A stretch of 64,000 nt of DNA from Candidatus Pacearchaeota archaeon (GTDB lineage: Archaea > Nanobdellota > Nanobdellia > Pacearchaeales > GW2011-AR1). Of the stretch, positions 1 through 52,475 are shown in pieces; within the stretch, counting starts at the first letter, position 1; the number at the start of each line of letters is the position of its first letter. The DNA lies in contig JALUUW010000003.1 in assembly GCA_027021195.1 (NCBI GenBank), forward strand, positions 4,843-68,842, written 5' to 3'. Below the pieces are notes generated by a model. The model saw nothing but the letters and a program-made list of their open reading frames with translations. It did not search any database and was not told the origin of the DNA. A program made the translations under genes and the position numbers.

Positions 1-587
1 CTGAAACTATTGAACCTGGGAAGATAGAAATCGCTATCTTTAATGATTTGAAAGAGTTTACAAAAAAATATGAATTTGAAAATAATAAATCTCTTCCTTT
101 TTTTGTTGTAGGATTTGCTGGAAAGAACGGCAGAATTTTTATCTTGGATAAAAAACTTTTTCCAAAACAAGGACACAGAGAAGAAGAATTTGAAAGAGTC
201 GTTGTTCATGAATTATGCCATGTATTTATCAGGAGAATGCTACACCCCAAACATACTTTCATTTGGATAGAGGAAGGGCTATGTGAATTTTTGTCTTTTG
301 GAGATTATCCTTTAAAAATAAAAAAAATAGTGGATTTTAGAGAGATTGAAACTTCTGAAGGATGGAGAAAGCATAATGCCTATCAACAAGCAAAAGGTTT
401 TTTTAAATATTTATCTAAAAATTATGGGGATAAAAAAATAGTGGAATTTATTAAAAAAATTAAAGTTACTTCTGAGAGAAAGGCATTTAAAGAGGTGTTT
501 GGAAAAGAAATAAATGAAATCCAAGAAAAGTTCTTTAACACCTTGAAAAATGAAAAAACTCTATCATCCGGGAATTCCTTGCAATGA
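1..587 (+). CDS. HExxH metallopeptidase-like protein (5' partial)
   Basis: The frame is open from nt 3 to the window edge, and the track start at 48 is a TTG. Motifs VVHELCHVF and downstream IEEGLCE fit a gluzincin-like HExxH+E. Overlaps the next gene by 38 nt. Confidence 0.5.
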   Translation, partial: ETIEPGKIEIAIFNDLKEFTKKYEFENNKSLPFFVVGFAGKNGRIFILDKKLFPKQGHREEEFERVVVHELCHVFIRRMLHPKHTFIWIEEGLCEFLSFGDYPLKIKKIVDFREIETSEGWRKHNAYQQAKGFFKYLSKNYGDKKIVEFIKKIKVTSERKAFKEVFGKEINEIQEKFFNTLKNEKTLSSGNSLQ

Positions 588-1716
588 GAATATAGTTCAA
601 AAAGATTTAGAAAAGAGTCTTATTAATTTTAGAAATAAGCGTATAGAGATTGTTGAATGTAATGAAGGGTTTGGAGTTTTTGATAAAGACTGGTTTTGGG
701 CAACAAAAGAAGAGTTAGATTCTCTTAAGAAATGCCCAGATATCTCAATAAGGTATTTTTTAGATAATGAAAAGTTCAATCATGAAGGATGGTTTTTTTA
801 TAACCCAATAGAACTTGGTATAGAATTAACAAGAGAATGTAATCAGCTGTGTATTCATTGTTGGAATGAATCTTCTTCAAGGGATACTAAAATGCCTTTG
901 AAGAAGGCAAAAGAAATTATTCAGGAATTTAGAAAAGGAGGAGGACAGAAAATAAAGATATCTGGTGGAGAACCATTATCATATTCTTCTTTAGATGAAT
1001 TTTTATTTTTTTCAAAAGAAGTTGGGATAAAAAAAGTAGATATGACATCTAATGGAGTGTTAATGAATAGGGAAAAAGCAAAATTTTTATCTACTCATCT
1101 AACAAATATATGTATAAGTATTCATGGTTCTAAATCAGATATACATGACGATATAACTTACAATAAAGGAAGTTTTGTAAAATCTATTAAAGCAATAGAG
1201 CATCTTCAGGAAGAAGGGTTAAACCCCATAATTAATTATACTGTTATGCAGAAAAACAAAAAGGACATTGCAGACATGATTGAATTAGGGAAAATTCTTA
1301 ATGTTAACGGGATAAAATTCAGTTGTTTAAAAAAGATTGGAAGAGCGAGAAATTTAGAGGTAATTTCTAAAGAAGAGGTAAATACATTAAGAAATTTAAT
1401 ATATACTAAATCGAAAGAGCTTGGAATTGAGTTAGAGAAGAGTGAATTGTATCCTGCAGGATATGTTCAAGGCATTAGTCAATCAAAATTTTATGGATGT
1501 AATGGATTAAGAACCCAACTATATATCTCTTCAGAAGGCAACGTTTACCCATGTAGTTTAATAAATGAAAGTATTGGAAACATTTACCAAGATTCTTTAT
1601 TTAATTTATGGAGAAGTAAAAAAGCTCAGGAATTTAGAAGATTGGATAATTGTATTAAAAATGATTGCAAAATAATTAGGGATTGTGGGAGAAAGTGTAG
1701 GGCAAGTTTGAAGTAA
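550..1716 (+). CDS. radical SAM / SPASM-domain enzyme (peptide-maturase-like)
   Basis: CNQLCIHC (CX3CX2C), SGGEPL, and a C-terminal Cys cluster: GCNG..YISSEGNVYPCS..CIKNDCKIIRDCGRKC. There is a ~95-aa N-terminal extension before the cluster motif. Confidence 0.85.
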   Translation: MKKLYHPGIPCNENIVQKDLEKSLINFRNKRIEIVECNEGFGVFDKDWFWATKEELDSLKKCPDISIRYFLDNEKFNHEGWFFYNPIELGIELTRECNQLCIHCWNESSSRDTKMPLKKAKEIIQEFRKGGGQKIKISGGEPLSYSSLDEFLFFSKEVGIKKVDMTSNGVLMNREKAKFLSTHLTNICISIHGSKSDIHDDITYNKGSFVKSIKAIEHLQEEGLNPIINYTVMQKNKKDIADMIELGKILNVNGIKFSCLKKIGRARNLEVISKEEVNTLRNLIYTKSKELGIELEKSELYPAGYVQGISQSKFYGCNGLRTQLYISSEGNVYPCSLINESIGNIYQDSLFNLWRSKKAQEFRRLDNCIKNDCKIIRDCGRKCRASLK

Positions 1717-1793
1717 CGAGGGAGAGTTAAATATAAAATATATTTTGACCATGGAAGAAAAATAGGGTATGGGAAGCTAAAAAAAGAGCAGAT

Positions 1794-2372
1794 ATGGAAG
1801 GTTATGAGAATATAAAATTTGTTAAAGCTGATATCAATTCCTTACCCTTTGACTCAGAAACGTTTGACGTTGTCATAGTAGGAAATGTCTTCTCTTTGAT
1901 AGAAAATAAAAAAATTGCATTAAAGGAATGCATGCGTGTTTCTAAAAAAAATGGATTTATTATTGTAATCCCTATGTATTACATAAAAGAACCTTCGAAG
2001 GAACTTATAAAGAGAGTTTCCAAAGCCCTTAAAGTCGACATTGCTCCTATGTATCGATCAGATTGGATAAATTTCTTCTCAATATCTGGATTAGAAATAT
2101 ATTGGTCAAAAGATTTCAAATTTGACCACATAGACAATAAAAAAATAATTTCCTTTTGTGAGGAGATTTTTAATAAAGAACATTTACGAAACTTGACTAA
2201 ATCGGCATATGAGAAACTATTTGAAGTTTATCAGAAATTTATGTTTCTATTTCGCGATAATTTATCTCATATGGGATATATCATACTTATTTTATCTAAA
2301 AGAAAGTTGTGGGAAGATCCAGAACTCTTTACATCCAGAGAAAATATCTCCCTTGGAAACTTTAGTCAATAG
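1794..2372 (+). CDS. class I SAM-methyltransferase, N-terminally truncated (motif I missing); possible pseudogene
   Basis: Starts at the post-motif-I region (KFVKADINSLPFDSETFDVVIVGNVF, KNGFIIV). No GxGxG motif is present. An in-frame TAA lies 5 codons upstream, and only 77 nt separate it from the previous gene. Confidence 0.5.
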   Translation: MEGYENIKFVKADINSLPFDSETFDVVIVGNVFSLIENKKIALKECMRVSKKNGFIIVIPMYYIKEPSKELIKRVSKALKVDIAPMYRSDWINFFSISGLEIYWSKDFKFDHIDNKKIISFCEEIFNKEHLRNLTKSAYEKLFEVYQKFMFLFRDNLSHMGYIILILSKRKLWEDPELFTSRENISLGNFSQ

Positions 2373-2390
2373 AATAAAATATGGTAATTC

Positions 2391-3416
2391 TTATTTGATT
2401 CCTTTTTCTAAGAACTCAAAATTGTTTGTTTCTGAGTCAATTACAACTTTTGTACCAATAGGGATAGTTAGCTGAGGATCGGTATGACCTATATCCACTC
2501 CAAACAAAATGGGAAAATTATATTCTTTTGTTCTCTCCAGTAACTTCTTTTTTAGCATTTCTATATCTTCTTCATTATATCTAAAAGGTCTGCCAAAAAT
2601 TAGCCCTCTGATTTGTTTAAATACTCCTAAAATGTTTAACTGCTCCAGATACCAGTCAACATAAGGAAGGGGTTCCCCTTCATCAAATGTCTGACCTTCT
2701 GGCAATTCTAAAAATAGAATCTTATCTGTATGATCTGGCCAGTATTTTGTACCTGGCAAATGGACTATTGATGTGAGACATCCTCCTATAATTTTACCTT
2801 CTGCTTTTCCTCCTCGCAACCATTCAAAACCTTTATTTTCTTTCAATTTTCTTGGCCTTGTAAGATCCAACTTTTTACTCCAATCTAAGAATTCATCAGT
2901 CCAGCTTTCAGAAGGAGATACTTTTCCTATGGGTTCATCTGATGCTACTGCCTTATTAAAATAATCTAAAGTATATTTAAGAGGATGAGGGTATTCTCCA
3001 AATTGAGTTATAATACATGGTCCATAAAAAGTTATAAGATTGGATTGCGTATGGAGTGCATAGTGCAAGATAGAGATATCTGAATAACCACAGAATATCT
3101 TTGGATTTTGTTTTATTTTCTCAAAATCTAAATAATTTAGAGTATGGGTTGCTACTGTTCCTCCAATTAAAGATATAATTGCTTTTATATCTTTGTCAAG
3201 AAAAGCGTCCATTATGTCTTTAGCCCTTTCTTCTGCAGGAGCAGATTCCCATCCGTTAACTTTTCTTGCTGTAGGAAACTCTTTAATTTTATAACCCTCA
3301 GATTTTAGAAATTTAACCGCATTGTCAAGTCTATGGGGAAAGTTCAATCCAGACGATGGAGCGATTATTGCTATTGTATCTCCTTTTCCAAGTCGTGGAG
3401 GCTTAATTAGTTCCAT
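2391..3416 (-). CDS. S66 family LD-carboxypeptidase / MccF-like serine peptidase
   Basis: GDTIAIIAPSSG, GYSDISIL (nucleophile Ser context) and DIGHTDP (His). Size is 341 aa. Confidence 0.8.
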   Translation of the reverse strand: MELIKPPRLGKGDTIAIIAPSSGLNFPHRLDNAVKFLKSEGYKIKEFPTARKVNGWESAPAEERAKDIMDAFLDKDIKAIISLIGGTVATHTLNYLDFEKIKQNPKIFCGYSDISILHYALHTQSNLITFYGPCIITQFGEYPHPLKYTLDYFNKAVASDEPIGKVSPSESWTDEFLDWSKKLDLTRPRKLKENKGFEWLRGGKAEGKIIGGCLTSIVHLPGTKYWPDHTDKILFLELPEGQTFDEGEPLPYVDWYLEQLNILGVFKQIRGLIFGRPFRYNEEDIEMLKKKLLERTKEYNFPILFGVDIGHTDPQLTIPIGTKVVIDSETNNFEFLEKGIK

Positions 3417-3862: not shown

Positions 3863-4531
3863 TTATATCTTAATTCTTTTAACATATTCTATACATTCAT
3901 TAATTAGAGGAATTATATCTGGATTATGCTTCCACGTTTCCATTACTCTCTTTCTTAATTCTTTATGTTCAGCATAGCCTTTATCTTCAACAAACCATAG
4001 ATCTCTACACTCTAAATTTAAGATTGCAGTTAAAGACTCATTAACATACTCTATTTCTCTAAACCCTAGCTGATTTCTAATTAAAGGCAAATGTGTTTTT
4101 TCCATCTGTAAATGCATTAATTCATGTCCACATGTTCTTAAATTTTGCAACAGAGGTCTTCGAATTGAGACCATGAAAGAATCCTCCTCCACATTATAAG
4201 GACATCTTCCAGCAGTTGTAATATATGCATTAAATTCATTTGAATATATTTTGTGTTTGGTAATTTTTTCTAACCTTTCAAAAAACCTGTTATTTATTTT
4301 TCCCCAAGAGTTCTGCAATGTTTCTAAAAAGATGTCTAAATGGCCTGAAGAATATAATGGTTGAATATACTGTTCAATCTCTTCCCTACATTCTTCAAAT
4401 TTTCTATTTTTCCACCTCTGTAGGACTGACCCTCTTTCTAATTCATTCTCCCATGGATGCTCGTAGTTGCTAGTTTCCCATATATTCCAAAGGTCTTTTT
4501 CCTTATCAAACTTAAAAATTACTTTTGACAT
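3863..4531 (-). CDS. HExxH-motif protein (putative Zn peptidase)
   Basis: CGHELMHLQ motif. Lies 16 nt downstream of the methyltransferase gene. Confidence 0.5.
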   Translation of the reverse strand: MSKVIFKFDKEKDLWNIWETSNYEHPWENELERGSVLQRWKNRKFEECREEIEQYIQPLYSSGHLDIFLETLQNSWGKINNRFFERLEKITKHKIYSNEFNAYITTAGRCPYNVEEDSFMVSIRRPLLQNLRTCGHELMHLQMEKTHLPLIRNQLGFREIEYVNESLTAILNLECRDLWFVEDKGYAEHKELRKRVMETWKHNPDIIPLINECIEYVKRIKI

Positions 4532-4547
4532 ATTCTTTTTTTGAAGG

Positions 4548-5072
4548 TTAAGCTTTTTGTTTATTTTTTAATAGTAATAAAATAACATTATGTTTATGGG
4601 GGGGCAAATTATCATGCTCTTCAATGGGGGTCTCATACATTCCTTCCTTCATTATTTCCCAATCAGAATATAGGTTTTTTAATTGTTTTAATGAAGGATA
4701 AAACCTATTTTGTGCATTTCTTGCCATAGGGTCTTTATCTGAAAAACAGATGATAAAAGTATGTCCTTGCTCAGAGGTATGTGTTTGTATCTTTTTTAAA
4801 ATATTTTGTGCAGTTACCTTATCTAAAAAATGCAAAACTAACGAAGCAATTATTAAGTCATATTTCTCTTTGAATTCAAAATTTGTTATATCTTCATTAA
4901 AGAATTTAAAATTTTTCTGGGAGATTTCCATAGGTCTTTTATCTACTCCAAGAACTTTTACGCCTTGTTTGGCAAATCTGAGAGATTTATGCCCTTTCCC
5001 ACAACCCAGATCCAAAACATTTTGAGGCTGTAGTTCTTTAAGATATTCTTTGACTTTATCCCTTATTATCAT
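4548..5072 (-). CDS. class I SAM-dependent methyltransferase
   Basis: VLDLGCGKGHKSLRFAKQGVKVLGVD (motif I plus acidic loop) and DLIIASLVLHFL. Confidence 0.8.
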   Translation of the reverse strand: MIIRDKVKEYLKELQPQNVLDLGCGKGHKSLRFAKQGVKVLGVDKRPMEISQKNFKFFNEDITNFEFKEKYDLIIASLVLHFLDKVTAQNILKKIQTHTSEQGHTFIICFSDKDPMARNAQNRFYPSLKQLKNLYSDWEIMKEGMYETPIEEHDNLPPHKHNVILLLLKNKQKA

Positions 5073-5108
5073 TTATTAATTCTTTAAGTTTATTTTATTT
5101 AATTCTTT

Positions 5109-6170
5109 CTAATCTTGTGAGCTTCCCTGCACATATTCTTTAAAACACATAGGGTCTTTGGCCATATAATCTCCTGTTACTGCATAAGCAATTGCCCTAC
5201 ATCCTCTGCAGTGCACCACTTTATCACAAAGAGTATTCTCCCTCATTTTATTCAAATCTCTTAAATTTTGCATTACCTTGTTCTCTAAAATTAAATTACC
5301 TATTCCGTCACTTATGCGACCTATTTTAATAGGAAGTCTTCTACAAGGATAAACAGTTCCGTCCGATAATATTGAAAGCATTCTAAATCCTGCAGAACAC
5401 CCCCAAAGATATTTATTTTGCTCCTTTGCTGTTTTTATTACTTCGTTTTCTTTTTCCAATATTTGCCAAAGAACATCAGATTGAAGGACATTAATCTTAT
5501 CTCTATATTTTTCATTTAGTCTTTCAGTTTCTTTAACCATCTCGTAGATTTCTTTAGCATTAATAAATTCAGGATCTTTAATTCCTAAGTTTGAATCTGG
5601 ATTATAAGTTTTAAAACCCACTTTTTTAGCTCCTGCTAAAATTGCATTTTGGATAACATCCTCAAACTCTTTTTTATTAGACTGCATAAGAGTCATGGCT
5701 ACTGTAACATTTAAGCCTTCTTTTGAAGCATTTCTTATCCCTTCAATTGCCATATCATATGCAAAATCTTTTCTCCTAATTTTATTATGTGTGCGCTTAG
5801 ATCCATCAAGAGAAACTTGTATTGCTTCAACTTTTTGCTCCAAAAGTTCTCTAGCTTTTTTAGGAGTAATTAATGTGCCATTAGTTAACAAATTTGTTAT
5901 AACTTTTTTCTTACAAGCATATTCTAAAATTTCAAGATGATCTTCCCTCATTAAAGGATCTCCTCCCGAAATTGCGATTCTGGGTATCATCTCCCACCTT
6001 TTTGCTGTCTCTGCTAAATCATCTATCATTGATTTTACTTCATTTAAACTCATTAAATTATCATCTTGGATGTGGTCTACATTCCCTTCGTTGTTATGAT
6101 AACAATGGGAGCATTTAAGATTACAATCATTTGTGGAATCCCCTTGAATATATAAGTGTCTTTTAGCCAT
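5109..6170 (-). CDS. radical SAM / SPASM-domain enzyme (peptide-maturase-like)
   Basis: CNLKCSHC (CX3CX2C) at residues ~16-23, SGGDPL, and a C-terminal WGCSAG..LSDGTVYPCRR..CDKVVHCRGCRA..DPMC (SPASM-type auxiliary cluster cysteines). Confidence 0.85.
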   Translation of the reverse strand: MAKRHLYIQGDSTNDCNLKCSHCYHNNEGNVDHIQDDNLMSLNEVKSMIDDLAETAKRWEMIPRIAISGGDPLMREDHLEILEYACKKKVITNLLTNGTLITPKKARELLEQKVEAIQVSLDGSKRTHNKIRRKDFAYDMAIEGIRNASKEGLNVTVAMTLMQSNKKEFEDVIQNAILAGAKKVGFKTYNPDSNLGIKDPEFINAKEIYEMVKETERLNEKYRDKINVLQSDVLWQILEKENEVIKTAKEQNKYLWGCSAGFRMLSILSDGTVYPCRRLPIKIGRISDGIGNLILENKVMQNLRDLNKMRENTLCDKVVHCRGCRAIAYAVTGDYMAKDPMCFKEYVQGSSQD

Positions 6171-6212
6171 TACAAATTAAGAGCAGTTTTTCTAAATCTA
6201 TTTGGAATTTTT

Positions 6213-6338
6213 TTATTCTAAAGAATAGACATCATCTGCGTAACATGCATCTGGACCACAAGCATCGCAAGGGTCACAGTGATAACGATCTTTCTCTTGA
6301 GACGCTTTATTAGTTATATAAGAACTAATATCTAACAT
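6213..6338 (-). CDS. 41-aa Cys/Asp-rich peptide, candidate RiPP precursor (not in ORF track)
   Basis: Hand translation gives MLDISSYITNKASQEKDRYHCDPCDACGPDACYADDVYSLE*. It has an ATG start and a TAA stop, lies 42 nt upstream of the rSAM gene on the same strand, and has a TATA-like box ~80 nt upstream. Confidence 0.5.
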   Translation of the reverse strand: MLDISSYITNKASQEKDRYHCDPCDACGPDACYADDVYSLE

Positions 6339-49648: not shown

Positions 49649-50224
49649 ATGAGAAAATACGTCTTGACAGGAGGGCCGTGCTCTGGAAAAACAACACTTA
49701 TTAATGAACTTAGAAAAAACGGCTTTTCTGTTTTAGATGAAACTGCAAGAGAGGTGTTAAGCTCTGCCCTAATCTCTGATAAGGTTATTAATAATAAAGA
49801 GAATTATGAAAAACTGGAGATTGAGATATTTCAAAGGCAGCTGAAAAAGGAAAGCAGCCTTTGCAAAAAAACCTTGCTTTATTTTCTTGACAGAGGAACT
49901 ATTGACTGCCTTGCTTATTCAGAGGTGTTTCTTGGATATGTTCCTGAAGAAATTGCAATCCACACTCATTCCGGAAGGTATGACAAAGTCTTTGCTTTAG
50001 AAAGATTGCCTTTTGTTAATGACGGAGTAAGAGTTGAGGGCACAGAAGAGGAAGCTAAAAAAATTCACGATTTTCTGATTAAGACCTATCTTGATTACGG
50101 ATATGAGCTGATACATGTTCCTGTTATGTCAGTAGAAGAAAGGATGGAATTTATTCTAAGATGCATTAAATCATGCTGTCTCAATAGATATCCTTCCCAA
50201 CAAGGATGTTTATCTGGAGATTGA
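49649..50224 (+). CDS. P-loop ATPase (AAA_28/NadR-like)
   Basis: YVLTGGPCSGKTTLINELRKNGFSVLDETAREV. The 3' end overlaps a gene remnant in another frame. Confidence 0.6.
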   Translation: MRKYVLTGGPCSGKTTLINELRKNGFSVLDETAREVLSSALISDKVINNKENYEKLEIEIFQRQLKKESSLCKKTLLYFLDRGTIDCLAYSEVFLGYVPEEIAIHTHSGRYDKVFALERLPFVNDGVRVEGTEEEAKKIHDFLIKTYLDYGYELIHVPVMSVEERMEFILRCIKSCCLNRYPSQQGCLSGD

Positions 50225-50324
50225 AGGAGACAAAAAATCAATCTTAAAGTGCCTGAGGGATTTTGGGCTGAAGCTTGAGGATATTGAAAAAAGGCCCTAT
50301 CAGGAGATAATCAAAAATGCATAA
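50160..50324 (+). pseudogene. start-less 54-codon frame resembling the C-terminus of a CYTH-domain protein
   Basis: DALNHAVSIDILPNKDVYLEIEGDKKSILKCLRDFGLKLEDIEKRPYQEIIKNA*. The hydrophobic-x-LEIEG...GL....SY.E pattern is typical of CYTH tails. There is no start codon, and the frame overlaps both neighbouring genes. Confidence 0.3.
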
Positions 50325-51624
50325 AAACATAATAAGAATAAAAAAGGAAAAGAGCAATTACCTGATTTTCAGCTCTGAAGGAATGCTCCTCTCCCTGACT
50401 CGGGAGGAATTTGAGGCTTTTGAAAAACACGGAAAAAAGAAAAAAATCAATCCTGAATATAAGGAAATACTTTCAAGGCTTGCATCTTATGGCATTCTGG
50501 AATTTGAGGATTTTAAGCCAGATGATGAAAGAAAGACTTATGACCTGTCTCTTTTAAGGCACAACTCTTCTGAGCCTCTTTATCCTGCTCCTGTTCTTGC
50601 TCATTTGTCTGTAACCAATAAATGCAATATGTCCTGCGAGTATTGCTCTGTCAGGGAACTGCACTGCTCTAATGCTGAAAAAGAACTGACAACAGAGCAA
50701 TGGAAAAAAATAATTTCCGGGCTTGCAGAATGGGGTGTTTTTCAGATAGGGTTCACAGGAGGAGAGCCGACACTGAGAAAGGATTTGCCTGAGCTTGCAA
50801 ACCATGTTCATGAAAAAGGATGCGTATTTAACCTGACAACAAACGGCTGGCTTTTAGATGAAAAGCTTGTTAGCAAGCTTGCAGAATCAGGAATGAAGCA
50901 GTGCCAGGTTTCCTTAGACTCCCACATTAAAGAGACTCATGAAAAGCTGAGGGGAAAAGGCTCTTATGAGAGAGCCATAAAATCCATAAGGCTGTTAAAG
51001 GACAAGGGAGTTGCTGTTGGAATAGACTGCGTTGTTTCTAGAAATAATATCGGCTCAATTCCTGAATTTATAAAGTGGATTGAAAAAGAAGGGATTCCTT
51101 ATCTGACTTTAATAAAGCTGAAAAAAGGGGATTTAAGCAGAGAGTATTATAATTACCTAATGCCTGATTACCATGCATATTCTAGATTGATAAAAGATAT
51201 ATGCTGCAGGGAAAAAAACAAAAACCCCAATATAACTCTTGACTGCGGAAGCGTTTCAAACCTTCAGGCAGTTGCTGATAAAAATAAATTTCATAATCTT
51301 CCTGTTGCAGGATGCCCTTTAGGCCATCATTTAATATGCATCTCTCCTTCTGGAAATATTTTCAGCTGCGCTGCCCTTCTTGATAAAAGGCTTTGTCTTG
51401 GAAATGCCTTAAAAGATGATATTAAGGAAGTCTGGGAAAACAATTCTCTTTTAAGGGAATTTAGATTAATAAAACAAAAAATCTCAGGAAAGTGCAGGAA
51501 TTGCGAAAGGCTTGACATATGCAGGGGAGGGTGCAGGGGAATTTCTTATTCAATAAACAATGGGTTGTTTGGCTCTGACTCAACATGTAAATTTCAGGAG
51601 GTGAAAAATGGAAATACGGGTTGA
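50317..51624 (+). CDS. radical SAM / SPASM-domain enzyme (peptide-maturase-like), third copy
   Basis: CNMSCEYC (CX3CX2C), TGGEPTL and a C-terminal GCPLG..ISPSGNIFSCA..CRNCERLDICRGGCRG..DSTC. The N-terminal ~100 aa look like a substrate-recognition extension. Confidence 0.85.
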   Translation: MHKNIIRIKKEKSNYLIFSSEGMLLSLTREEFEAFEKHGKKKKINPEYKEILSRLASYGILEFEDFKPDDERKTYDLSLLRHNSSEPLYPAPVLAHLSVTNKCNMSCEYCSVRELHCSNAEKELTTEQWKKIISGLAEWGVFQIGFTGGEPTLRKDLPELANHVHEKGCVFNLTTNGWLLDEKLVSKLAESGMKQCQVSLDSHIKETHEKLRGKGSYERAIKSIRLLKDKGVAVGIDCVVSRNNIGSIPEFIKWIEKEGIPYLTLIKLKKGDLSREYYNYLMPDYHAYSRLIKDICCREKNKNPNITLDCGSVSNLQAVADKNKFHNLPVAGCPLGHHLICISPSGNIFSCAALLDKRLCLGNALKDDIKEVWENNSLLREFRLIKQKISGKCRNCERLDICRGGCRGISYSINNGLFGSDSTCKFQEVKNGNTG

Positions 51625-51854: not shown

Positions 51855-52475
51855 TCAAATGTCAAAAATCTTCTCTTTTCTTGAGACATTAATGATTTTT
51901 GTTTTTCCCATTTTTTCCTCAATCCCTTCAGCCTCATGAATGTGCGCGCTGATTAAGATGTCTGGCTTGAATTCTTTTACTGCCTTTTTTATTGCCTTGC
52001 TTCCTTTAAATCCTGAGAATTCCGCCTTGCTTCCATTGTGATGCATATGGGTTACCATAATTTTTTTATTGACTTTTTTAAGGGCATTGTTTCCTTTTTT
52101 CAGAGCATCAAAAATCTCTTTTTCTGTTGTATTAAACTCCAGTGCCCCTCCTGCCCCGAAAATACCCACTTTGTCTTTTACAAAAGAGTATCCATGAATG
52201 TTCTTGGTGTTTGGATACATTTCTGCAAGAAAATCCACTGTAGCAATAGATTCGTGGTTTCCATGAAGCAATAAAACCGGTTTTTCTGCTTTTGTGAAAG
52301 GGCCTACAATGTTTTTTACTGAGCTTTCTGCCAGAGTCAGGTCTCCTGCAAGTATTACTAAGTCAACATTTTCTTTTTTTGCCTTTTCAGCCAGCTTTTT
52401 CACTAGCCCAGTGTCTCCATGAATGTCTCCAACTGCAAGTATTCTTGTTTTTTTTCTGTTTCCTGGATGTTTCAT
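51855..52475 (-). CDS. calcineurin-like metallophosphoesterase
   Basis: ILAVGDIHGD, LAGDLT, GNHE, and GGA...HMH/SAHIHE. Confidence 0.8.
   Translation of the reverse strand: MKHPGNRKKTRILAVGDIHGDTGLVKKLAEKAKKENVDLVILAGDLTLAESSVKNIVGPFTKAEKPVLLLHGNHESIATVDFLAEMYPNTKNIHGYSFVKDKVGIFGAGGALEFNTTEKEIFDALKKGNNALKKVNKKIMVTHMHHNGSKAEFSGFKGSKAIKKAVKEFKPDILISAHIHEAEGIEEKMGKTKIINVSRKEKIFDI

What the first reader, a model, noticed from the sequence alone, without database searches (positions are those of the whole stretch)
1..2372. Second, mirror-image module (HExxH protein, rSAM/SPASM, methyltransferase) that looks partly decayed
Seen in sequence: the plus strand carries a HELCH protein (5' partial), an overlapping rSAM/SPASM gene (CNQLCIHC) and a methyltransferase. 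That methyltransferase begins after motif I: it has no GxGxG, and a stop lies 5 codons upstream of its ATG. This trio converges on the same S66 peptidase gene as the minus-strand operon, so the locus holds two sets of the same three enzyme classes.

Inference: this is either a duplicated or diverged maturation module whose precursor lies upstream of the window, or a degenerating copy. The truncated MTase argues for decay.
Basis: partly seen in the sequence, partly recalled or inferred. Interest (0 to 1): 0.5.

Follow-up and report, generated by a model that had tools for sequence, protein, structure and literature searches.

The report
RiPP cassette abutting a truncated mccD-like gene
The supposed decaying second module is two unrelated things side by side in a DPANN archaeon: an intact four-gene radical-SAM peptide cassette that starts upstream of the window, and the headless stub of a microcin-C-type (MccD-like) enzyme gene left next to its intact MccF-like peptidase partner.

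Summary
Plus strand: HELCH protein (3..587, 5'-partial), overlapping rSAM/SPASM gene (550..1716), and a 192-codon "methyltransferase" ORF (1794..2372) without motif I. The in-frame stop lies 15 codons upstream of the ATG, not 5.

- The precursor predicted upstream exists. It is a 59-aa ORF ending ...YSCDAVCDNCHCATF, preceded by a further rSAM/SPASM gene.
- The unit rSAM-A / precursor / HExxH / rSAM-B recurs elsewhere, ends at rSAM-B and never includes a methyltransferase. It is intact here.
- The truncated gene belongs to a different system. Its 271-285-aa homologues are MccD-like (PDB 5fcd, E 7.7e-37). In every context examined they sit in clusters holding a class II aaRS-like paralogue and an S66 peptidase, which is convergent in the DPANN loci and co-directional in Xenorhabdus. 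The window's S66 is MccF-like.
- Here the first ~81 codons and all upstream cluster genes are gone.
- The two "modules" are not duplicates. The MTases and the HExxH proteins show no similarity, and the rSAMs are 25-27% identical, which is background level.
- Decay is limited to the truncation. The stub keeps 29/29 family-invariant residues.

Verdict: an uncharacterised rSAM RiPP cassette next to a relic of a microcin-C-like cluster. Moderately interesting.

The parts
1..587 (+). 3' 194 codons of a 226-aa gluzincin-type HExxH peptidase (HELCH, with Glu 18 residues after the second His, in WIEEG). The gene starts 94 nt upstream of the window (L001 2963..3643). It is the third gene of the RiPP cassette and the presumed leader peptidase.
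   Evidence: Pfam BSP 29 bits against cut-off 23.8. Alignment A5 shows invariant H101, E102, H105, E123 and G124. 54-56% identical to the cassette orthologues in L013 and L014.
550..1716 (+). rSAM-B: a 388-aa radical SAM/SPASM enzyme and the last gene of the cassette. It has the CX3CX2C motif (C97, C101, C104), six conserved SPASM-region Cys, and a conserved ~85-aa N-terminal extension (MKxxHHPGxPC) at the position of the N-terminal domain of SkfB and AlbA.
   Evidence: Its family has only 18 relatives at 38-48% identity. 42-46% identical to L013 and L014, where it is the terminal gene.
1717..1762 (.). Junction between the cassette and the gene stub. The 46 nt have no detectable homology to mccD-like genes or to any fetched locus. 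The stretch is AT-rich and contains a TATA-like TTAAATATAAAATATATTTT.
   Evidence: The nhmmer alignment starts at 1763 and tblastn at 1773. blastn-short finds only chance 11-15-mers. Identical in L001 and L002.
1763..2372 (+). 5'-truncated mccD-like gene (class I SAM-dependent transferase fold). Homology covers positions 243-829 of an 845-nt profile. The open frame runs 1749..2372 and the first ATG is at 1794 (192 aa). The N-terminal helices, beta1 (motif I LEIGTSTG), alphaA, beta2 and half of alphaB are missing.
   Evidence: AF2 model of the full-length P0002; the stub's best PDB hit is MccD 5fcd residues 96-247, E 1e-8; family vs MccD, TM 0.88 and E 7.7e-37.
2391..3416 (-). Intact MccF-like S66 serine peptidase (341 aa) with GYSD, E and GHT triad motifs. 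It is the conserved convergent partner of the mccD-like gene in relatives and is not a conserved component of either rSAM module.
   Evidence: B. anthracis MccF-type 5f5x 2.3e-62; E. coli MccF 3tla 8.4e-45; LdcA-type 1e-12 to 5e-5; 79% identical to the S66 of L008/L009 and 71% to that of L007, with the same convergent geometry; no S66 in 28 HELMH/rSAM loci.
3863..6338 (-). Comparator only: the minus-strand module. It comprises a 41-aa Cys/Asp-rich ORF (6213..6338), rSAM-C (5109..6170), a TehB-like MTase (4548..5072) and a HELMH protein (3863..4531).
   Evidence: The HELMH family was found in 28 DPANN loci; 19 of these show an rSAM/SPASM hit within the fetched flank (adjacent to the HELMH gene in most), and 17 have a Cys-rich small ORF next to the module. 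None has a TehB-like MTase or an S66.

Best explanation
Window 1-2372 contains two unrelated genetic units that abut at about position 1717-1762.

(1) Positions 1-1716 are the distal half of an intact four-gene RiPP cassette, whose first genes lie just upstream of the window.
- rSAM-A: 435 aa, window -1585..-278.
- Precursor: 59 aa, ending ...LAEYSCDAVCDNCHCATF.
- HExxH gluzincin: 226 aa.
- rSAM-B: 388 aa.
Inferred mechanism: the two radical SAM/SPASM enzymes each install cross-links on the four-Cys core, most likely Cys-derived thioether links of the sactionine or ranthionine type. The zinc peptidase then removes the leader.

(2) Positions 1763-2372 are the 3' two-thirds of an mccD-like gene.
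- Intact homologues are 271-285 aa. In all DPANN contexts examined they lie downstream of class II aaRS-like paralogues and face an MccF-like S66 peptidase.
- In this genome the aaRS-like genes and the first ~81 codons of the mccD-like gene are gone. The lost codons encode the SAM-binding beta1/motif I and beta2. The RiPP cassette now occupies that side.
- The MccF-like gene (2391..3416) is intact. I read it as an immunity or detoxification gene retained after loss of the biosynthetic genes, with the stub as a non-functional relic of a recent rearrangement.

Shown: gene content, homology, synteny, breakpoint position, and absence of duplication.
Inferred: the cross-link chemistry, the leader-peptidase role, the immunity role of S66, the non-function of the stub, and the idea that cassette arrival and truncation were one event.
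For: - Contig extension and ORFs reveal rSAM-A and the 59-aa Cys-rich ORF. The ORF is translationally coupled to rSAM-A (ATGA overlap at L001 2775-2778).
- The same four-gene order occurs in L013 and L014 and ends at rSAM-B. Downstream genes there are unrelated and on the opposite strand.
- Orthologue identities are 45-57% (rSAM-A), 54-56% (HExxH) and 42-46% (rSAM-B).
- Precursor cores align: YSCDAVCDNCHCATF, YSCDAGCKNCHCASY, YSCDAGGPCQCHCATY, YACDANCDNCHCATF.
- Of the 51 other mccD-like family hits, all but four short contig fragments are 259-285 aa. Alignment A1 shows the window copy lacks the first ~83 residues.
- The DNA profile places the onset of homology at 1763, which is profile position 243 of 845.
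- Seven DPANN loci from four distinct lineages (L003-L009) and one Xenorhabdus locus (L047) carry a class II aaRS-like paralogue, the mccD-like gene and an S66 together. This excludes L009, which is too short to show the upstream genes. The S66 is convergent in the DPANN loci and co-directional in Xenorhabdus.
- The window's S66 is 79% identical to that of L008, and the spacing to the convergent gene is similar, 18 vs 23 nt.
- Family vs MccD: profile E 7.7e-37 over positions 3-224, against 4e-19 for the next hit. Foldseek E 4.6e-21 with TM 0.88, against 0.6 for the next hit.
- Published functions of MccD and MccF: PMC8323819.
- No aaRS-like genes and no N-terminal mccD fragment occur anywhere in the 64-kb window or the 3.2 kb upstream.
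- No S66, mccD-like gene or TehB-like MTase occurs in 28 loci carrying the other HExxH/rSAM module type.
Against: - The stub has no lesion beyond the truncation. It is an open 192-codon frame that keeps 29/29 residues invariant in 23 full-length homologues, and relative-rate tests are non-significant. Either the truncation is recent or the fragment is still constrained.
- An independent lineage (P0011, L017/L018) is truncated within ~8 codons of the same point. It also begins with Met just before the EGY motif and sits next to an intact S66. I cannot explain this coincidence.
- No insertion scars, flanking repeats or GC shift mark the cassette. That cassette arrival caused the deletion is therefore conjecture.
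- The cross-link chemistry is untested, and no rSAM here reaches the cut-off of any named maturase family.
Confidence: 0.82

Rival explanations
1. The plus-strand trio is a duplicated or diverged copy of the minus-strand maturation module (HExxH + rSAM + MTase), it is degenerating, and the truncated MTase is its decaying tailoring enzyme.
For: The same three enzyme classes sit on both strands and converge on one S66 gene. Both precursors have Cys/Asp-rich cores that begin Y-x-C-D. DPANN genomes hold many such HExxH + rSAM + Cys/Asp-peptide modules, so the two are broadly the same kind of system.
Against: MTase pair E 0.5 (MccD-like vs TehB-like). HExxH pair E 0.36 (BSP/MA-type vs an unassigned family). 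rSAM-B vs rSAM-C is 27% identical, equal to every other rSAM pair on the contig, including an unlinked one 45 kb away. Cassette orthologues lack any MTase. All four cassette genes are full length.
Confidence: 0.04
2. The 192-aa C-terminal fragment is a functional, selectively retained protein. It might act as a non-catalytic partner of the MccF-like peptidase or of the RiPP machinery, translated from the new ATG at 1794 and possibly transcribed from the TATA-like junction or by read-through from rSAM-B.
For: The ORF is intact in 30%-GC DNA. 29/29 invariant residues are kept and there is no rate acceleration. An independent truncation in L017/L018 at nearly the same codon also starts Met-(Gly)-EGY and sits beside an intact S66. 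A K/S/E-to-Met substitution inside the homologous sequence creates the start.
Against: The fragment starts in the middle of helix alphaB of a single Rossmann-type domain and lacks two core strands and the SAM-binding loop, so autonomous folding is doubtful. No Shine-Dalgarno-like sequence precedes the ATG (sequence). P0011 already differs at 3 of the 29 invariant residues. Two events are too few to exclude coincidence; a rough chance estimate is 16/280 codons, about 6%.
Confidence: 0.1
3. The junction is an assembly chimera that joins two different genomic regions or strains, and the real genome has a full-length gene.
For: The contigs L017 and L018 of another population both break ~105 nt upstream of their truncated copy. 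That shows this neighbourhood is hard to assemble or varies between strains.
Against: Three assemblies made by different pipelines are identical through 1700-1795 and differ at only 1-2 positions over 6.6-11.7 kb. GC content is uniform across the junction.
Confidence: 0.02

Closest known systems
MccD, the SAM-dependent 3-amino-3-carboxypropyl transferase of E. coli microcin C biosynthesis (PDB 5fcd)
   Same: The full-length family of the truncated gene matches MccD far better than any other solved class I transferase. The match includes the N-terminal Y-N...N-x-PPGG region and the C-terminal P-M-Y-Y...V-S-x-A-I segment. The stub alone also hits MccD best. As in mcc clusters, it is paired with an MccF-type S66 gene.
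   Different: Only ~23% identical. The neighbours are class II aaRS-like paralogues rather than MccA/MccB/MccE. The window copy lacks the SAM-binding half and cannot be an active enzyme. Aminocarboxypropyl transfer as opposed to methyl transfer is untested for this family.
MccF, the S66 self-immunity peptidase of microcin C, and stand-alone MccF orthologues such as those of B. anthracis
   Same: The window's S66 scores 2.3e-62 against B. anthracis MccF-type proteins and 8.4e-45 against E. coli MccF. True LD-carboxypeptidases score 5e-28 to 5e-5. The Ser/Glu/His motifs are present. Stand-alone MccF genes without a biosynthetic cluster are common in bacteria (PMC8323819).
   Different: The host is archaeal (DPANN). 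The substrate is unknown and no mccABC genes are present.
Sactipeptide and ranthipeptide maturation systems (AlbA, SkfB, StsB, PapB, CteB): rSAM/SPASM enzymes acting on Cys-rich precursors
   Same: CX3CX2C plus a SPASM domain. rSAM-B has an N-terminal extension where SkfB and AlbA carry their N-terminal domain; the best PDB hit is SkfB at 2.7e-15. The precursor is short with a C-terminal Cys-rich core, and its Cys/Asp content recalls the Cys-X3-Asp sites of PapB substrates (from memory, a lead only).
   Different: All scores are far below family cut-offs: AlbA 92 vs 850, StsB 91 vs 625, SkfB 76 vs 300, PapB 54 vs 340. The cassette has two different rSAMs and a BSP/MA-type gluzincin. No RRE was detectable with Pfam. 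It is archaeal, and the chemistry is unknown.
ACGX-repeat peptide system (NCBIfam TIGR04340 rSAM_ACGX)
   Same: It is the best NCBIfam hit for rSAM-C of the minus-strand module (172 bits). The DPANN precursors have short Cys-containing repeats such as GCYS and CD.
   Different: The score is below the cut-off of 400. It is not the best hit for rSAM-A or rSAM-B. No ACGX repeats occur in the plus-strand precursor.

Membership tests
MccD-like class I SAM-dependent transferase (the family of the truncated gene) | Full-length sequence and fold similarity to MccD beyond the generic MTase core | tested here: met
   Profile A3 vs 5fcd gives E 7.7e-37 over profile positions 3-224 of 276, against 4e-19 for the next hit. 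Foldseek gives TM 0.88 and E 4.6e-21, against TM ~0.6 for the next hit.
MccD-like class I SAM-dependent transferase (the window copy) | Presence of the SAM-binding motif I (beta1, LEIGTSTG) and of beta2 | tested here: not met
   The Pfam match starts at profile position 44 of 95. Alignment A1 starts at homologue residue ~84. The AF2 model places residues 49-76 (beta1, alphaA, beta2) in the missing part.
MccD-like class I SAM-dependent transferase | 3-amino-3-carboxypropyl transfer from SAM to a phosphoramidate or nucleotide substrate | not testable with these tools
   This needs an enzymatic assay. The function is taken from PMC8323819 for E. coli MccD only.
MccF-type S66 peptidase (neighbour gene 2391..3416) | Both S66 domains with the Ser-Glu-His triad, and closer to MccF than to LdcA | tested here: met
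   Pfam S66 1.3e-35 and S66C 4.5e-29. The GYSD, LELPE and GHT motifs align to 5f5x. MccF-type hits score 2e-62 to 8e-45 and LdcA-type hits 1e-12 to 5e-5.
MccF-type S66 peptidase | Hydrolysis of aminoacyl- or peptidyl-nucleotides, conferring resistance | not testable with these tools
   Requires biochemistry or a resistance assay.
Radical SAM/SPASM peptide maturase (generic) | CX3CX2C radical SAM cluster motif plus a C-terminal SPASM Cys-rich domain, encoded next to a short precursor | tested here: met
   rSAM-B: Radical_SAM 4.9e-22 and SPASM 6e-11. rSAM-A: 2.7e-26 and 1.6e-6. A conserved 57-64-aa Cys-rich ORF lies between rSAM-A and the HExxH gene in three loci.
Named sactipeptide or ranthipeptide maturase families (AlbA, SkfB, StsB, PapB, CcpM, ACGX) | Score at or above the NCBIfam curated cut-off | tested here: not met
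   rSAM-B: AlbA 92.5 vs 850, StsB 90.7 vs 625, SkfB 76.4 vs 300. rSAM-A: PapB 54 vs 340. rSAM-C: ACGX 171.8 vs 400 and PapB 94.8 vs 340.
Gluzincin / BSP (PF04450) peptidase (HELCH protein) | HExxH with a third ligand Glu ~18 residues downstream, and a Pfam score above the gathering threshold | tested here: met
   BSP scores 29.0-29.1 bits against 23.8. H101, E102, H105 and E123 are invariant in A5. Peptidase_MA_2 is below threshold (24.8 vs 32.4).
Recent paralogous duplicate of the minus-strand module | Each enzyme pair more similar to each other than to unrelated members of its class | tested here: not met
   MTases E 0.5 and HExxH proteins E 0.36. rSAM pairs B-C 78 bits, A-B 81, A-C 74, A-D 84 and C-D 79, all 24-27% identical.
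RRE (PqqD-like) leader-recognition domain in rSAM-A C-terminus or rSAM-B N-terminus | Detectable PqqD/RRE domain | tested here: inconclusive
   No Pfam hit at E <= 10 for either extension. RREs are often missed by Pfam, and no structure prediction was run.

The most novel reading that the evidence does not exclude
The stub and its S66 neighbour may be what remains of a previously undescribed route to aminoacyl-nucleotide (microcin-C-warhead-like) antibiotics that does not use MccB. The route would be built from stand-alone class II aaRS catalytic-core paralogues, an MccD-like aminocarboxypropyl transferase and MccF-like immunity. The core set is shared by DPANN archaea (L003-L009) and gamma-proteobacteria. 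In Xenorhabdus bovienii (L047) it comes with an Mtn-like nucleosidase, an extra class I aaRS copy and an MFS exporter. On this reading the window records loss of production with retention of immunity, and replacement by a rSAM RiPP cassette. The repeated truncation of the mccD-like gene at the same helix in two lineages could then reflect a selected outcome rather than chance.
Probability: 0.3. Interest if true: 0.7.

Novelty: new variant of a known kind. Interest (0 to 1): 0.45.

Why it matters
- It corrects a plausible annotation error. Enzyme classes that look like a matching RiPP trio in fact belong to two unrelated systems. The "tailoring methyltransferase" is a dead fragment of an MccD-type gene.
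- It defines a small, uncharacterised archaeal RiPP cassette with a sharply conserved four-Cys core, CDAxCxNCHCA[TS][FY]. The cassette has two rSAM/SPASM enzymes, a gluzincin and the precursor. It could be tested directly by heterologous expression. DPANN archaea are rarely credited with secondary metabolism.
- It points to a conserved cluster of aaRS paralogues, an MccD-like gene and an MccF-like gene. The cluster is shared between DPANN archaea and insect- or nematode-associated gamma-proteobacteria. If it is biosynthetic, it would broaden the microcin-C paradigm beyond ThiF-like MccB enzymes.
- It gives an example of an orphan immunity gene that persists after the loss of the producer genes.

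Tried and rejected
- By eye, window 1727-1762 (GTTAAATATAAAATA...) looked like frame-shifted homology to the VKCRIT region of L003. The nhmmer profile alignment starts only at 1763, with the envelope from 1742, so I do not claim this.
- I searched for the missing N-terminal 83 codons and for the aaRS-like genes elsewhere in the window and in the 3.2 kb upstream. Nothing was found.
- I searched for repeats or att-like sites flanking the cassette. Only short AT-rich chance matches appeared, plus a 44-nt promoter-like repeat upstream of the NYN gene and of rSAM-A.
- GC profile: 29-34% throughout L001 1-11400, with no island signature.
- Bacterial promoter and terminator scan: promoter-like sites were fewer than in shuffles (38 vs 45). 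Terminator-like sites were not clearly enriched (9 vs 5.0 +/- 2.6), and none lies in the junction. The scan is uninformative for an archaeon.
- Pfam search for RRE/PqqD in the rSAM extensions: no hit.
- The upstream 103 nt of L017/L018 compared with the window junction and all loci: no similarity.
- Literature searches for DPANN rSAM RiPPs and for MccD/MccF in archaea or Xenorhabdus returned nothing specific.
- dN/dS was not attempted, because synonymous sites are saturated at ~70% amino-acid identity. Conservation of invariant residues and Tajima relative-rate tests were used instead.
Full report
**1. What is in the sequence**

The plus strand of window 1-2372 carries three features.
- A 5'-partial ORF with HELCH at 3..587. 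Pfam BSP scores 29.1 bits against a cut-off of 23.8.
- A 388-aa radical SAM/SPASM gene at 550..1716 that overlaps the first ORF by 38 nt. It has CNQLCIHC, Radical_SAM 4.9e-22 and SPASM 6e-11.
- A 192-codon ORF at 1794..2372 that matches only positions 44-95 of the 95-position Methyltransf_11 profile. It therefore has no motif I.

Its stop lies 18 nt from the stop of the convergent S66 gene at 2391..3416. One detail in the finding is wrong. The nearest in-frame stop is TGA 1746-1748, which is 15 codons upstream of the ATG and not 5.

**2. Extending the contig**

An exact-protein look-up of the rSAM returned two further assemblies, L001 (ENA ERZ27262676) and L002 (Logan SRR8439019).
- They differ from the window at only 1-2 positions over 11.7 and 6.6 kb.
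- They are identical across 1700-1795. The junction is therefore not an assembler artefact, although I did not check whether the samples are independent.

L001 adds 3,056 nt upstream of the window. That stretch holds another rSAM/SPASM gene, here called rSAM-A (435 aa, L001 1471..2778). It is translationally coupled to a 59-aa ORF, MIKDIESVASEGALDTKNIGVLRIRNYCLTDRDYKKPDASDLAEYSCDAVCDNCHCATF. The full 226-aa HExxH gene follows.

**3. The cassette is a conserved, complete unit without a methyltransferase**

- The rSAM-B family is small, with 18 relatives at 38-48% identity, all from metagenomes.
- Two relatives with enough flank, L013 and L014, show the same order: rSAM-A (436/437 aa), peptide (57/64 aa), BSP-type HExxH (215/219 aa), rSAM-B (374/376 aa). 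After that come unrelated genes on the opposite strand.
- Identities to the window genes are 45-57%, 54-56% and 42-46% respectively.
- All window genes are full length in the alignments. They keep the invariant HExxH...E (+18) gluzincin motif, the CX3CX2C motif and the SPASM cysteines.
- The peptide cores align as YSCDAVCDNCHCATF, YSCDAGCKNCHCASY, YSCDAGGPCQCHCATY and YACDANCDNCHCATF.
- None of the rSAMs reaches the cut-off of any named maturase family. The best solved relative of rSAM-B is the sactipeptide enzyme SkfB, at 2.7e-15.

I therefore read this as an uncharacterised rSAM/SPASM RiPP cassette. The thioether-type cross-linking and the leader removal by the gluzincin are inferred, not shown.

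**4. The truncated gene belongs to a different system**

Its homologues number 51 apart from itself. The nearest are 64-72% identical and come from Nanoarchaeota and Woesearchaeota MAGs. Apart from four short contig fragments, they are 259-285 aa long.
- Alignment shows the window copy lacks the first ~83 residues, including LEIGTSTGF. The in-frame codons upstream of the ATG (EAKKRAD) still align.
- tblastn puts the start of homology at 1773 and a DNA profile puts it at 1763, which is profile position 243 of 845.
- An AF2 model of the intact homologue P0002 (pLDDT 92) shows that the lost part contains the N-terminal helices, beta1 (motif I), alphaA, beta2 and half of alphaB. The break falls inside a single domain, not at a domain boundary.
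- The model's best structural match is MccD (5fcd; E 4.6e-21, TM 0.88, against ~0.6 for the next hit).
- The family profile hits MccD at 7.7e-37 over nearly its full length. The stub alone also hits MccD best.
- MccD is the SAM-dependent 3-amino-3-carboxypropyl transferase of microcin C (PMC8323819).

*Context.* Every full-length homologue context I examined contains the same partners.
- Upstream lies a stand-alone class II aaRS-like paralogue: tRNA-synt_2 type in L003-L007, and a weak HisRS-like match in L008.
- Many contexts also contain a tRNA-synt_2b-like paralogue or a second methyltransferase.
- All contain an S66 peptidase. It is convergent in the DPANN loci L003-L009 and co-directional in Xenorhabdus.
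- L009 is too short to show the upstream genes.
- In Xenorhabdus bovienii the set also includes a PNP_UDP_1-family (Mtn-like) nucleosidase, an extra class I aaRS and an MFS transporter.

*The S66 neighbour.*
- The window's S66 is 79% identical to that of L008, whose mccD-like gene is the stub's closest relative. The convergent spacing is similar.
- It resembles MccF-type enzymes (2.3e-62 and 8.4e-45) far more than LD-carboxypeptidases.
- MccF is the S66 self-immunity peptidase of microcin C, and stand-alone MccF genes are common (PMC8323819).

*What is missing.* No aaRS-like gene and no N-terminal fragment exists in the 64-kb window or upstream of it. The stub and S66 therefore look like the remains of a microcin-C-like cluster, with only the putative immunity gene left intact.

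**5. The two modules are not duplicates**

- The two MTases (MccD-like vs TehB-like) give E 0.5.
- The two HExxH proteins (BSP/MA-type vs an unassigned HELMH family) give E 0.36.
- rSAM-B vs rSAM-C is 27% identical. That equals A-B (27%), A-C (25%), and A or C vs a fourth, unlinked rSAM/SPASM at 50317..51624 (24-25%).
- The HELMH family occurs in 28 DPANN loci. An rSAM/SPASM gene lies within the fetched flank in 19 of them, adjacent to the HELMH gene in most, and a Cys-rich small ORF sits next to the module in 17. None has an S66, a TehB-like MTase or an mccD-like gene.

The only shared theme is the broad kind: HExxH protein, rSAM/SPASM enzyme and Cys/Asp-rich peptide. Neither methyltransferase nor the S66 is a conserved part of it.

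**6. How decayed is the stub?**

Apart from the truncation, it is not decayed.
- It keeps 29/29 residues that are invariant in 23 full-length homologues.
- It deviates at 3 of 52 positions that are at least 90% conserved, where intact members deviate at 0-4.
- It shows no significant acceleration in ten Tajima relative-rate tests.

Either the truncation is recent or the fragment is still constrained.

An unexplained coincidence favours keeping the second possibility open. An independent lineage (P0011 in L017/L018) has full-length relatives P0006 and P0009 at 72-74% identity and is only 61% identical to the window. It is truncated within ~8 codons of the same point, again begins Met-Gly-EGY, and again faces an intact S66. 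P0011 has lost 3 of the 29 invariant residues. Because the fragment lacks two core strands and the SAM loop, I still rate a functional fragment as unlikely (~0.1).

**7. What I could not establish**

- No repeats, GC shift or scars show how the cassette came to abut the stub.
- No RRE was detectable by Pfam.
- The bacterial promoter scan is uninformative for an archaeon.
- The 46-nt junction contains a TATA-like AT run, which is unremarkable in 30%-GC DNA.
- Literature searches found nothing on these archaeal modules or on the aaRS/MccD/MccF cluster type.

The contig is archaeal. It carries a fused PriS-PriL primase, two CDC48 genes and Lrp-type regulators, and its relatives are labelled Nanoarchaeota, Woesearchaeota or Pacearchaeota.

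**8. Verdict**

The precursor does lie upstream and the MTase is truncated. However, this is not a duplicated module, the module is not decaying, and the MTase is not part of it.

The region is an intact, uncharacterised two-rSAM RiPP cassette abutting the relic of an MccD/MccF-type cluster. Interest is moderate. The cassette is a new variant of a known kind, the stub is ordinary gene erosion, and the more novel lead (the aaRS-paralogue/MccD/MccF cluster) lies mostly outside this window.

Noticed in passing
L003 7620-12750; L005 5964-10973; L007 5677-10772; L008 3-3961; L047 6833-16828: A conserved cluster: stand-alone class II aaRS catalytic-core paralogue (tRNA-synt_2, 359-397 aa), tRNA-synt_2b-like paralogue, MccD-like transferase and MccF-like S66. 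It occurs in DPANN archaea and in Xenorhabdus bovienii. In Xenorhabdus it also has a PNP_UDP_1 (Mtn-like) gene, two glyoxalases, an 821-aa class I aaRS and an MFS transporter. The components are homologous across domains (27-44% identity). It looks like an undescribed aminoacyl-nucleotide antibiotic and immunity cluster.
   Followed up: partly
L017 1-661 and L018 1-665: A second, independent 5' truncation of the mccD-like gene (P0011, 185 aa, starting MGEGY). It lies within ~8 codons of the window's breakpoint. The upstream sequence is non-homologous and full of stops, and an intact convergent S66 follows. Both contigs end ~105 nt upstream. The coincidence of breakpoints is unexplained.
   Followed up: partly
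window 50317-51624 (+): A fourth radical SAM/SPASM gene (435 aa) with a ~95-aa N-terminal extension. It is 24-25% identical to rSAM-A and rSAM-C. It lies next to an AAA_28 gene (49649..50224) and a metallophosphoesterase gene (51855..52475). I did not look for a precursor.
   Followed up: no
L019-L045 (28 DPANN genome loci): The HELMH protein of the minus-strand module defines a family. An rSAM/SPASM gene is detected in 19 of the 28 loci, adjacent to the HELMH gene in most. In seven loci it is an rSAM-A-like enzyme at 33-37% identity. In 17 loci a Cys-rich small ORF lies beside the module, for example ...YMCDCDSFGGGDAPCDCNR, ...YASDCCYGADCGDCDCGGYCIDD and ...GCYSTGCYSPSSCIDCYSVD, with conserved MVKTLEPL or MVETLLDKV leaders. 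This is a sizeable mix-and-match RiPP-like superfamily in DPANN archaea.
   Followed up: partly
L003 11747-12750: The S66 gene is split into two ORFs (159 + 177 aa) although the adjacent mccD-like gene is intact. This is the opposite erosion pattern to the window.
   Followed up: no
L007 2419-4051: Fragmentary rSAM (79 aa) and SPASM (135 aa) ORFs lie beside a transglutaminase-core gene, just upstream of the aaRS/MccD/S66 cluster. They may be a decayed rSAM module in another lineage.
   Followed up: no
L011 680-1514: A precursor homologue (...YACDANCDNCHCATF) and the HExxH gene occur without any rSAM in the 3.9-kb contig. The HExxH match is split across two frames (877-1416 and 1413-1514), which suggests a frameshift.
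   Followed up: no
window 550-587; L014 2319-2353; L015 892-926: The 3' end of the HExxH gene and the 5' end of rSAM-B overlap by 35-38 nt in different frames in three loci. Both the encoded C-terminus (NEK..SSGN.L) and the encoded N-terminus (MKxxHHPGxPC) are conserved.
   Followed up: no
L001 265-308 and 1389-1432 (window -2792..-2749 and -1668..-1625): A 44-nt direct repeat (73% identical) containing a TTTAAATC/TTTATAAATC TATA-like element. One copy lies upstream of the NYN gene and the other ~40 nt upstream of rSAM-A. It is a likely shared archaeal promoter motif.
   Followed up: no
window 8690-14769 (-): Two very Cys-rich predicted secreted or membrane proteins (495 and 1247 aa) share N-terminal Cys-rich repeats. 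The 495-aa gene has a distinctly higher GC content (~45% against ~31% nearby).
   Followed up: no
window 16589-18202 (+): A single 537-aa ORF matches both the small (PriS) and large (PriL) primase subunit domains, so it appears to be a fused primase.
   Followed up: no
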